DNA of 64,000 nucleotides. Source: Eledone cirrhosa. Its lineage: Eukaryota. The stretch spans positions 33,418,001-33,482,000 of the forward strand of contig OZ024749.1 of NCBI GenBank assembly GCA_964016885.1. The letters are read 5' to 3'. A program made the translations under genes and the position numbers. Numbering within the stretch: the first letter of the stretch is position 1; each line of letters starts with the position of its first letter. Under the pieces are notes generated by a model that saw only the letters and a program-made list of their open reading frames with translations, ran no database searches and had not been told where the DNA came from. This document shows positions 55,416-55,608 of this stretch, in pieces.

Positions 55416-55604
55416 TAACGAAGGAAGTGTAGTAAGGAGCCAGGTGGACCATAATGCACCAGAGTACTCGATACTATGGGTTGTAGAGTGGGTAATAGGA
55501 AAAGAGTCAGGACCCCGACGACTGAGCTCCAGCCGTTTCGACAGCTAGGTCTGAACTAGCTGTCGAAACGGCTGGAGCTCAGCCGTCGGGGTCCTGACTC
55601 TTTT

Positions 55605-55608
<4 letters not shown>
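55416..55608 (-). mobile_element. Family FA fold-back element whose apex is the intact HHR stem II
   Basis: Apex GACAGCTAG-GTCTGAA-CTAGCTGTC (55540-55564). Confidence 0.85.

What the first reader, a model, noticed from the sequence alone, without database searches (positions are those of the whole stretch)
55416..55608. In family FA the palindrome apex is the ribozyme's own stem II, so every copy has lost CUGANGA
Seen: FA reads ...GTC-GAAA-CGGCTG-GAGCT-CAGCCG-TC-GGGGTCC, a full HHR 3' half with stem III and a GUC site, but none of ~15 copies has CUGANGA. Here the apex GACAGCTAG-loop-CTAGCTGTC read on the minus strand (GACAGCTAGTTCAGACCTAGCTGTC) matches the independent copy at 53290 (TAGTTCAGATCTAGCTGTC). 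This hairpin is therefore native sequence in the stem II position. Copies at 297, 19006, 21875, 22790, 27020, 35925 and 37472 all break within or beside the same hairpin. Inference: cDNA synthesis stalls at stem II and the cDNA snaps back and self-primes the second strand. This yields a ribozyme-dead palindrome, with the HHR structure acting as a replication hairpin.
Basis: partly seen in the sequence, partly recalled or inferred. Interest (0 to 1): 0.8.

Follow-up and report, generated by a model that had tools for sequence, protein, structure and literature searches.

The report
Penelope stubs ending at transcript start
This mirror-image repeat is a stub of a known ribozyme-carrying jumping gene, likely made by two DNA copies meeting head to head, and most stubs sampled stop at one spot inside the ribozyme that likely marks where the element's RNA begins, not where copying jams.

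Summary
The palindrome is real, but its apex is not the ribozyme's stem II. FA is the 3' end of a Hydra-clade Penelope-like element (parent found: RT plus GIY-YIG ORF, 3.5-kb unit). Long copies, including the window's own at 22733-22930, keep the whole type I hammerhead. Its core is UUGANAA (U3-A8; 5,729 exact genome matches against 17 for CUGANGA), and the true stem II partner lies about 45 nt upstream. GACAGCTAG is only the inverted copy of the 3' strand.

Paired arms end at two fixed sites 80 nt apart. The apex loop reads native on the tail-less arm in 24 of 63 insertions, which argues for two primed cDNAs joined head to head rather than one snap-back.

Breaks do cluster: 65 of 72 unselected arms stop 9-21 nt upstream of GUC-GAAA, past stem II, whereas 0 of 17 ORF-bearing copies stop there. 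An initiator-like TTAGTYC sits at the wall, and arms ending on its A carry an excess upstream G (42 G against 9 A), as a capped RNA start would leave. No RNA data were available. The scan has already noted such twin-primed stubs and this core elsewhere; my look-ups found no note on the start-site signal.

The parts
55415..55494 (-). 80-nt one-sided 'tail' of the Penelope-like element; ends at CGTTAT flush with (TA)n (distal 3' end, inferred RT start)
   Evidence: in the ORF-bearing copy L092 the same sequence continues into the leader
55495..55542 (-). Tail-bearing arm: hammerhead 3' half (GAAA 55539-55536, stem III with palindromic GAGCTC loop, predicted cleavage after C at 55517, stem I 3' strand)
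55543..55558 (-). Native sequence -1 to -16 of the tail-bearing arm: stem II 3' strand and the start of loop II, including the A of the initiator-like TTAGTTC (55557), where this arm ends
55540..55564 (.). Apex hairpin = head-to-head junction of the two arms at a native quasi-palindrome; not native stem II
55556..55609 (+). Tail-less inverted arm: stem II 3' strand and hammerhead 3' half (predicted cleavage after C at 55587), ending at CCTAT flush with (TA)n (proximal 3' end, inferred RT start)
55610..55660 (.). (TA)n target, right flank; a shorter TA run lies at the left flank around 55405-55416
22733..22930 (-). Longer tail-less copy with the complete type I hammerhead: stem I, core UUGAGAA (22836-22830), long interrupted stem II, GAAA, stem III, GUC
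53201..53353 (.). Two-arm copy with no duplicated ribozyme half: tail only on minus (53288-53201) joined to a tail-less arm on plus reaching -18
171..343 (.). Head-to-head stub, junction at about -2
18948..19155 (.). Head-to-head stub, arms to -18 (tail-less) and -13 (tail)
19237..19327 (.). Partial two-arm stub
21727..21943 (.). Head-to-head stub, junction at about -19
26873..27104 (.). Head-to-head stub with short duplications at the junction
35928..36073 (+). Single tail-bearing arm reaching -18
37344..37532 (.). Head-to-head stub, junction at -2 (tail arm) and -7 to -11 (tail-less arm)

Best explanation
The palindrome is a stub insertion of a Hydra-clade Penelope-like retrotransposon in (TA)n, likely made when two cDNAs, primed on the two ends of one cut from two internal start sites 80 nt apart, ran off the likely capped 5' end of a transcript that begins inside the hammerhead's loop II and were joined head to head. 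Shown: the parent element and its clade motifs; the full U3-A8 hammerhead motif in long copies; two fixed 3' ends; both loop orientations; the wall at -9 to -21; its absence in ORF-bearing copies; an initiator-like motif at the wall; the G excess. Inferred: two priming events; joining through microhomology or blunt ends with some trimming; that the wall is a capped transcription start. If so, the mRNA begins with only half a ribozyme and cannot cut off its own cap, and long copies come from templates without that end (tandem read-through, circles, or a jump to the 3' repeat). I put the two-cDNA part at about 0.85 and the transcription-start part at about 0.6.
For: Parent: L092 has a 717-aa open frame with RWR, DKT, YRDD, CNCPDRSIC, IY..YIG and CNLC, all Hydra-clade marks in PMC8557442 section 11; unit length 3,550. 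Two ends: 57 of 59 close pairs have one tail end and one CCTAT end (includes search-targeted loci); 34 of 41 among untargeted pairs with a stricter tail test. Public contigs show loose ends into (TA)n at two places 80 nt apart. Tail-less arms can be over 1 kb long, so CCTAT is itself a start. Two RT starts and extension of both strands were shown in vitro for another PLE (PMC11167929). Loop native on tail arm against tail-less arm: 28:17 among 45 clean pairs of 65 loci, and 11:7 in a second subfamily. Wall: 65 of 72 unselected arms reaching -9 stop by -21, whichever start they used; 0 of 17 ORF-bearing copies do (Fisher p 5e-13). TTAGTYC in 76 of 83 long copies, T at -16 in 83 of 83; it fits YYANWYY (PMC4581360). 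14,735 genome matches have a base other than T at -16; the first 100 read 49 C, 42 G, 9 A (hand tally), against a partner-derived G share of 0.42 (p 6e-9). Locally G follows the break in 7 of 16 arms ending at -15 and in 8 of 77 ending elsewhere (p 0.0035). An extra G marks cap copying in full-length L1 insertions (PMC11702581). D. virilis Penelope has an internal promoter (PMC2377424).
Against: The start site has no direct support from RNA. None of 20 ORF-bearing copies begins at -15 to -21, although simple copying of a tandem transcript back to its cap predicts some; an extra assumption is needed. Of 11 local G cases, by my reading 8 could also come from partner sequence or microhomology and only 3 have no other source. 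About 30 of 117 short arms extend to -16 to -21 and 5 go further, so the start would be dispersed or blurred by T-run slippage and chance matches. YYANWYY is degenerate, and the motif also pairs in a weak inner hairpin. The two arms of one insertion share a subfamily (mean 2.6 differences in 42 nt within pairs, 6.9 between, 34 pairs), which also fits copying of one arm from the other. Loop orientation could flip after insertion (recalled for other inverted repeats; not tested). The 100 rows are the first on one contig, not a random sample.
Confidence: 0.6

Rival explanations
1. Two cDNAs as above, but the wall is a protein or RNA roadblock: the element's own protein holds stem II and loop II during initiation, so RT primed just downstream halts there, while RT arriving from far downstream does not.
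For: It explains the position-specific wall and its absence in ORF-bearing copies without a second RNA class. PAc ribozyme activity needs the protein (PMC11167929).
Against: It does not predict the G excess at exactly -16 or a pyrimidine-A step conserved there. About a tenth of arms pass (7,602 5'-half against 69,404 3'-half matches, patterns of different stringency) and then run for hundreds of bases.
Confidence: 0.2
2. One reading: RT stalls on the ribozyme's own stem II fold and a single cDNA snaps back and self-primes the second arm.
For: Breaks cluster near stem II. Arms of one insertion share a subfamily. The loop is native on the tail arm in 39 of 63, and this copy is one of them. Stem II is the strongest local helix in the A subfamily (-17.5 kcal/mol with its insert).
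Against: The apex is not stem II. Only 12 of 84 breaks lie in the stem II strand. The same fold is crossed 17 of 17 times by ORF-bearing copies. The loop is native on the tail-less arm in 24 of 63. Non-overlapping arms occur (53290). The cDNA end folds back at only -0.9 kcal/mol, against -10.4 for two ends annealed. Snap-back of one of two cDNAs in some insertions is not excluded.
Confidence: 0.08
3. The template's 5' end at loop II is made by RNA cutting or splicing (an endonuclease site, or the TTAG acceptor-like site at -17 to -14), not by transcription initiation.
For: It gives a fixed RNA end and so a wall. One subfamily has a pyrimidine run before TTAG.
Against: Splicing would put a common upstream exon at -13; none recurs among the 84 unselected arms. 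An uncapped end does not predict the G excess. Ribozyme cleavage lies 40 nt downstream, and few arms end near it (2 of 46 tail-anchored arms break between +3 and +26 and 5 between +27 and +46).
Confidence: 0.07
4. The palindrome is itself a fixed small mobile unit (MITE- or SINE-like) that spreads as a whole.
For: 65 loci share nearly this exact apex.
Against: Spacers between arms vary from about 0 to 105 nt with many different junctions. The 65 are a minute share of about 69,000 arms. They occur in both loop orientations and sit on a native quasi-palindrome that would recur independently.
Confidence: 0.05

Closest known systems
Hydra clade of C-terminal-endonuclease Penelope-like elements (Craig et al. 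2021, PMC8557442; seen: passages, section 11, part 2 of 59 of the supplement), including Hydra-1_Obim
   Same: RWK-like, DKT, CxCX5C, CxxC and CxH motifs, no CCHH by motif scan, C-terminal GIY-YIG, (TA)n target, inverted 5'-truncated copy, one-sided tail, hammerhead near the 3' end.
   Different: Unit is 3.5 kb (described members are generally under 3 kb); tail is 80 nt (30-40 described for PLEs); the hammerhead has a U3-A8 core, a stem II insert of about 35 nt and a 6-bp stem III, where the listed Hydra hammerheads are canonical. The Hydra-1_Obim hammerhead in the supplement has a different sequence.
U3-A8 hammerheads of Schistosoma mansoni Cercyon PLEs (Cervera and de la Pena 2014, PMC4209133; seen: parts 1-2 of 4); U3-A8 reported active in vitro (Perreault et al. 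2011, PMC3088659; seen: passages)
   Same: Same core swap, type I topology, palindromic loop III, G10.1-C11.1, position in the pLTR.
   Different: Those are minimal (little or no stem III, one extra base after position 9). This one has a full stem III, no extra base and a long interrupted stem II; about 23% of 5' halves read C3-A8, a mismatch.
PAc Poseidon element in vitro (Frangieh et al. 2024, PMC11167929; seen: parts 1-2 of 4)
   Same: Two internal RT starts that define the tail, extension of both target strands, uncleaved RNA as template, AT-rich target.
   Different: There the starts are adjacent and not homologous to the target; here they are 80 nt apart and both end in TAT, matching the (TA)n target. 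In the parts I read, that paper describes no 5' wall.
L1 twin priming and cap-derived extra G (PMC11702581; seen: passages)
   Same: Inverted junctions with microhomology from two priming events; extra G where the cDNA reaches the cap.
   Different: L1 arms are adjacent, non-overlapping parts of one RNA with a variable second start; here both starts are fixed and the arms overlap, which gives a palindrome.

Membership tests
Hydra-clade PLE | Single ORF with RT and C-terminal GIY-YIG | tested here: met
   717-aa open frame in L092 with YRDD and IY..YIG. Atlas look-alikes at 0.96-0.99 carry HTH_animal, GIY-YIG and RVT_1. Pfam gave 0 hits and PDB sequences nothing significant. L092 and L094 each carry a break in the frame.
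Hydra-clade PLE | RWK motif and DKT in place of DKG | tested here: met
   RWR at residue 30, DKT at 110
Hydra-clade PLE | CxCX5C linker; CxxC and CxH around the conserved E and N; no CCHH | tested here: met
   CNCPDRSIC, CNLC..E, and CKH visible; my CCHH pattern found nothing and my N..CxH pattern missed on spacing. Motif scan only, no alignment to references.
Hydra-clade PLE | (TA)n insertion | tested here: met
   46 of 46 tail ends found in the unselected set run into TA repeats
Hydra-clade PLE | Canonical hammerhead | tested here: not met
   Core UUGANAA 5,729, CUGANAA 1,780, UUGANGA 76, CUGANGA 17. A described trait of the clade rather than its defining one; it makes this a variant.
Hydra-clade PLE | RT phylogeny groups with Hydra | not tested
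Type I hammerhead ribozyme | Three helices around the core with a 3-8 pair, G12 A13 A14, U16.1 and H17 | tested here: met
   60 distinct long copies: stem I 52-58 of 60 paired per position, stem III 54-58 of 60 over five pairs, GAA 56, UC 55; stem II six pairs 57-60 of 60 with one G-C (30) / A-U (27) covariation, N7 free. The MFE fold gives the junction, though its z-score is only -1.0. Rfam found no hammerhead there.
Type I hammerhead ribozyme | Self-cleavage | not testable with these tools
   Needs an in vitro assay. The stubs lack the 5' half and cannot form it in cis.
Animal non-LTR retrozyme | Tandem non-coding units each with a whole hammerhead | tested here: not met
   Upstream sequence leads into a coding 3.5-kb element; stubs are not tandem units.
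Pol II initiator promoter | YYANWYY at the start, with downstream elements at fixed spacing | tested here: inconclusive
   TTAGTYC fits exactly. Read directly from the sequence with A at -15 as +1: DPE range set 5 of 6, MTE 7-9 of 12. These motifs are degenerate and overlap the ribozyme core.
Pol II initiator promoter | Capped RNA 5' ends at the site | not testable with these tools
   Needs CAGE or 5' RACE.

The most novel reading that the evidence does not exclude
Penelope-like elements make a target-primed 'strong-stop' cDNA. The capped mRNA starts inside the hammerhead's loop II, so the ribozyme's 3' half doubles as the core promoter. RT primes just downstream, copies to the cap, and must jump to the 41-nt repeat left at the RNA's 3' end by ribozyme cleavage. 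Long and tandem copies are successful jumps; the tens of thousands of palindromic stubs are two failed jumps joined head to head. This would give the PLE hammerhead a role and link PLE replication to the first strand transfer of LTR elements.
Probability: 0.2. Interest if true: 0.85.

Novelty: new variant of a known kind. Interest (0 to 1): 0.5.

Why it matters
How Penelope-like elements build their inverted and tandem insertions, and what their hammerheads do, is stated as open in PMC8557442 and PMC11167929. This young family, with tens of thousands of arms, records the products at single-base resolution. The element type, the layout and the U3-A8 core are known. The new lead is a sharp 5' wall inside the ribozyme with a cap-like G, absent from ORF-bearing copies. 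It predicts one exact transcription start and turns the question into a 5' RACE and an in vitro TPRT experiment. My searches listed no paper that describes it; the library lacks most subscription papers, and supplements of PMC11167929 and PMC4209133, which I did not open, may bear on it.

Tried and rejected
Rfam: no hammerhead among the 150 of 553 rows shown for the window or among the 5 rows for 22700-22900. Pfam and PDB sequence searches of the ORF were blank. No part of the parent ORF lies in the window. No RNA holder was listed; the four holders are contigs of unknown kind from one study, used only for the two 3' ends. A read-level histogram of break positions could not be obtained. A canonical-core subfamily is rejected: 17 CUGANGA matches are about what independent changes give (1,780 x 76 / 5,729 = about 24). 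Strict 3-8 covariation is rejected: 1,780 matches read C3-A8, so an intact core does not seem required for spread. A length-limited abortive RT is rejected because arms from starts 80 nt apart end in the same zone. My prediction that ORF-bearing copies begin at -15 failed (0 of 20, the top 20 of 40 listed after L092; 17 cross the zone, 3 break downstream of it). The stem I and stem III rows were off by one column and were redone. Seven loops of mixed type among 65 hint at arms from different templates, but the number is small and I do not rely on it. The sequence look-up in earlier findings returned nothing, as did the start-site word look-up.

Full report
Coordinates. Positions such as -15 count upstream from the G of GTC-GAAA (the end of the stem II 3' strand). 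'Unselected' means 1,394,000 bases taken by position: the window with 200 kb on each side, plus 93 stretches of 10 kb. The window lies in a 3.0-Gb animal genome, G000:C9:33418001-33482000. It looks like a cephalopod from recalled repeat motifs; I did not test that.

1. Observation. The palindrome is present as described. Read on the minus strand it is an arm with the hammerhead 3' half plus an 80-nt extension; on the plus strand it is the same half ending at CCTAT. Both ends run into (TA)n. No FA copy in the window has CUGANGA. Long copies from two genome searches show the same build in both main subfamilies. The native stem II partner lies about 45 nt upstream; GACAGCTAG at the apex is the inverted copy of the 3' strand.

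2. The ribozyme. Exact genome counts: UUGANAA 5,729, CUGANAA 1,780, UUGANGA 76, CUGANGA 17, each with 0 for the reversed control. The 3' half has 69,404 matches. In 60 distinct long copies the three helices pair at most positions, one stem II pair covaries (G-C 30, A-U 27) and position 7 is free. These copies are related and partly chosen by search, so the counts are not independent events. The minimum-energy fold of the window copy gives the three-way junction, with an unremarkable z-score of -1.0. U3-A8 is published for S. mansoni PLEs (PMC4209133) and reported active in vitro (PMC3088659). The 1,780 C3-A8 matches suggest that cleavage is not needed for spread, in line with PAc. Activity is untested here.

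3. The parent. Upstream sequence leads through a 1.2-kb 3' UTR to an ORF end. L092 holds a 5' partial repeat with the whole hammerhead, tail, leader, a 717-aa open frame, UTR, hammerhead, tail and (TA)n, plus an inverted tail-less copy of 1.65 kb. The unit is 3,550 nt; the two 3' ends lie at +46 and +126 and an ATG at +216. Places spaced 3,531 nt apart on C1 indicate tandem arrays. The motifs RWR, DKT, CxCX5C, CxxC and CxH, the lack of CCHH and the TA target match the Hydra clade (PMC8557442). Pfam and PDB were blank; Atlas look-alikes carry GIY-YIG and RT families. No tree was built.

4. Two cDNAs. In 57 of 59 close pairs one arm has the tail and the other ends at CCTAT; with a stricter tail test on untargeted pairs it is 34 of 41. 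For the apex of this finding there are 65 exact loci. Among 45 clean pairs the loop reads native on the tail arm in 28 and on the tail-less arm in 17; the other 20 were partial or unclear. A second subfamily gives 11 and 7. A single tail-primed snap-back predicts none of the second kind. The tail-less arm reaches further in 9 of 34 pairs, the tail arm in 13, and 12 are within 2 nt. The 53290 copy has non-overlapping arms. The cDNA end folds back weakly (-0.9 kcal/mol) but two ends anneal at -10.4. Against this, both arms share a subfamily, which also fits one source locus, one RNA, or copying, and loops could invert later. PAc extends both strands from two internal starts, which is the chemistry required.

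5. The wall. Of 84 unselected arms, 12 break at -1 to -8, 65 at -9 to -21, 3 further up within the ribozyme, and 4 are long. Tail-anchored arms agree: 23 of 46 break at -9 to -21 and 11 of 46 downstream of +2. Arms that pass run for hundreds of bases (a set selected for length). Of 20 ORF-bearing copies, 17 cross the zone, none stops in it and 3 break downstream. The fold alone therefore does not stop the RT.

6. What makes the wall. TTAGTYC at -17 to -11 is kept in 76 of 83 long copies while the rest of loop II diverges between subfamilies. It fits the initiator consensus with A+1 at -15, and -15 is the most frequent end among unselected and bycatch arms (16 of 117, against 15 at -11). Genome-wide, 14,735 arms have a base other than T at -16. 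The first 100 read 49 C, 42 G and 9 A; 7 of the C rows are long copies with a native C and no G row could be tied to a listed 5' half. Partner-derived sequence predicts a G share of 0.42 among G and A; 42 of 51 departs from it (p 6e-9). An extra G is the mark of cap copying in L1, and D. virilis Penelope has an internal promoter. The limits are real: 8 of 11 local G cases have another possible source, no RNA was seen, and ORF-bearing copies do not begin at -15, so they need a template without that end.

7. Mechanism. Most likely, the endonuclease cuts (TA)n; each end primes on the element RNA, one at +126 and one at +46, helped by TAT matches; both cDNAs run to the RNA's 5' end in loop II; and the ends are trimmed and joined at whatever short complementarity exists. 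In this subfamily that is a native quasi-palindrome, which produces the recurring apex. The product lacks the catalytic half because the template never had it. Rivals are a protein roadblock (0.2), the stall and snap-back model (0.08), an RNA end made by cutting (0.07) and a fixed mobile palindrome (0.05).

8. Novelty. The clade, the inverted layout with a one-sided tail and the U3-A8 core are in print, and earlier notes of this scan describe twin-primed stubs and this core elsewhere in the genome. I reached my reading before those look-ups and treat them as unchecked. The long-stem-II ribozyme and the 80-nt tail are variants. The start-site wall with a cap-like G appeared in none of my paper searches and in no note found by the word look-up. 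Verdict: new variant of a known kind, interest 0.5.

Noticed in passing
window 37657 (+) and 41545 (+): Another repeat family with a canonical CUGAUGA...GAAAC hammerhead-like motif followed by a tail that resembles the FA tail in part; probably ends of a second Penelope-like family.
   Followed up: no
window 48082 (+) and 42328 (-): A third family with CUGAUGA, a short stem II, GAAA and a TA-repeat stem III, ending in (TA)n.
   Followed up: no
window 2031-2395 and 16371-17061: Near-perfect long inverted repeats (175 and 281 nt arms) with outward-facing CUGANGA motifs next to (TA)n; the same head-to-head layout in unrelated families. The first family recurs near 49417-49538.
   Followed up: partly
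window 23281 (+), 47859 (+), 17234 (+), 38131 (+), 35550 (+): Further CUGANGA...GAAA motifs in other sequence contexts.
   Followed up: no
G000, 1,780 places; L239-L244: A large set of FA copies with a mismatched C3-A8 core, often in head-to-head pairs, so a probably impaired ribozyme was propagated.
   Followed up: partly
G000:C1:437200372-437211171: Four leader matches spaced 3,531 nt apart: a tandem array of whole units, a candidate source of long templates.
   Followed up: no
L204:9355-9520: A head-to-head stub with about 140 nt between the arms that resembles the element's own RT coding region, suggesting templated insertion during joining.
   Followed up: no
L208:1601-1643; unselected stubs near C9 33.53 Mb: Runs of T (or A on the other strand) at junctions next to the native TTT at -16 to -18, suggesting slippage or untemplated addition at the cDNA end.
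   Followed up: no
window 1632-1674 and 14517-14559: Two identical 43-nt tail-only remnants in opposite orientation 13 kb apart.
   Followed up: no
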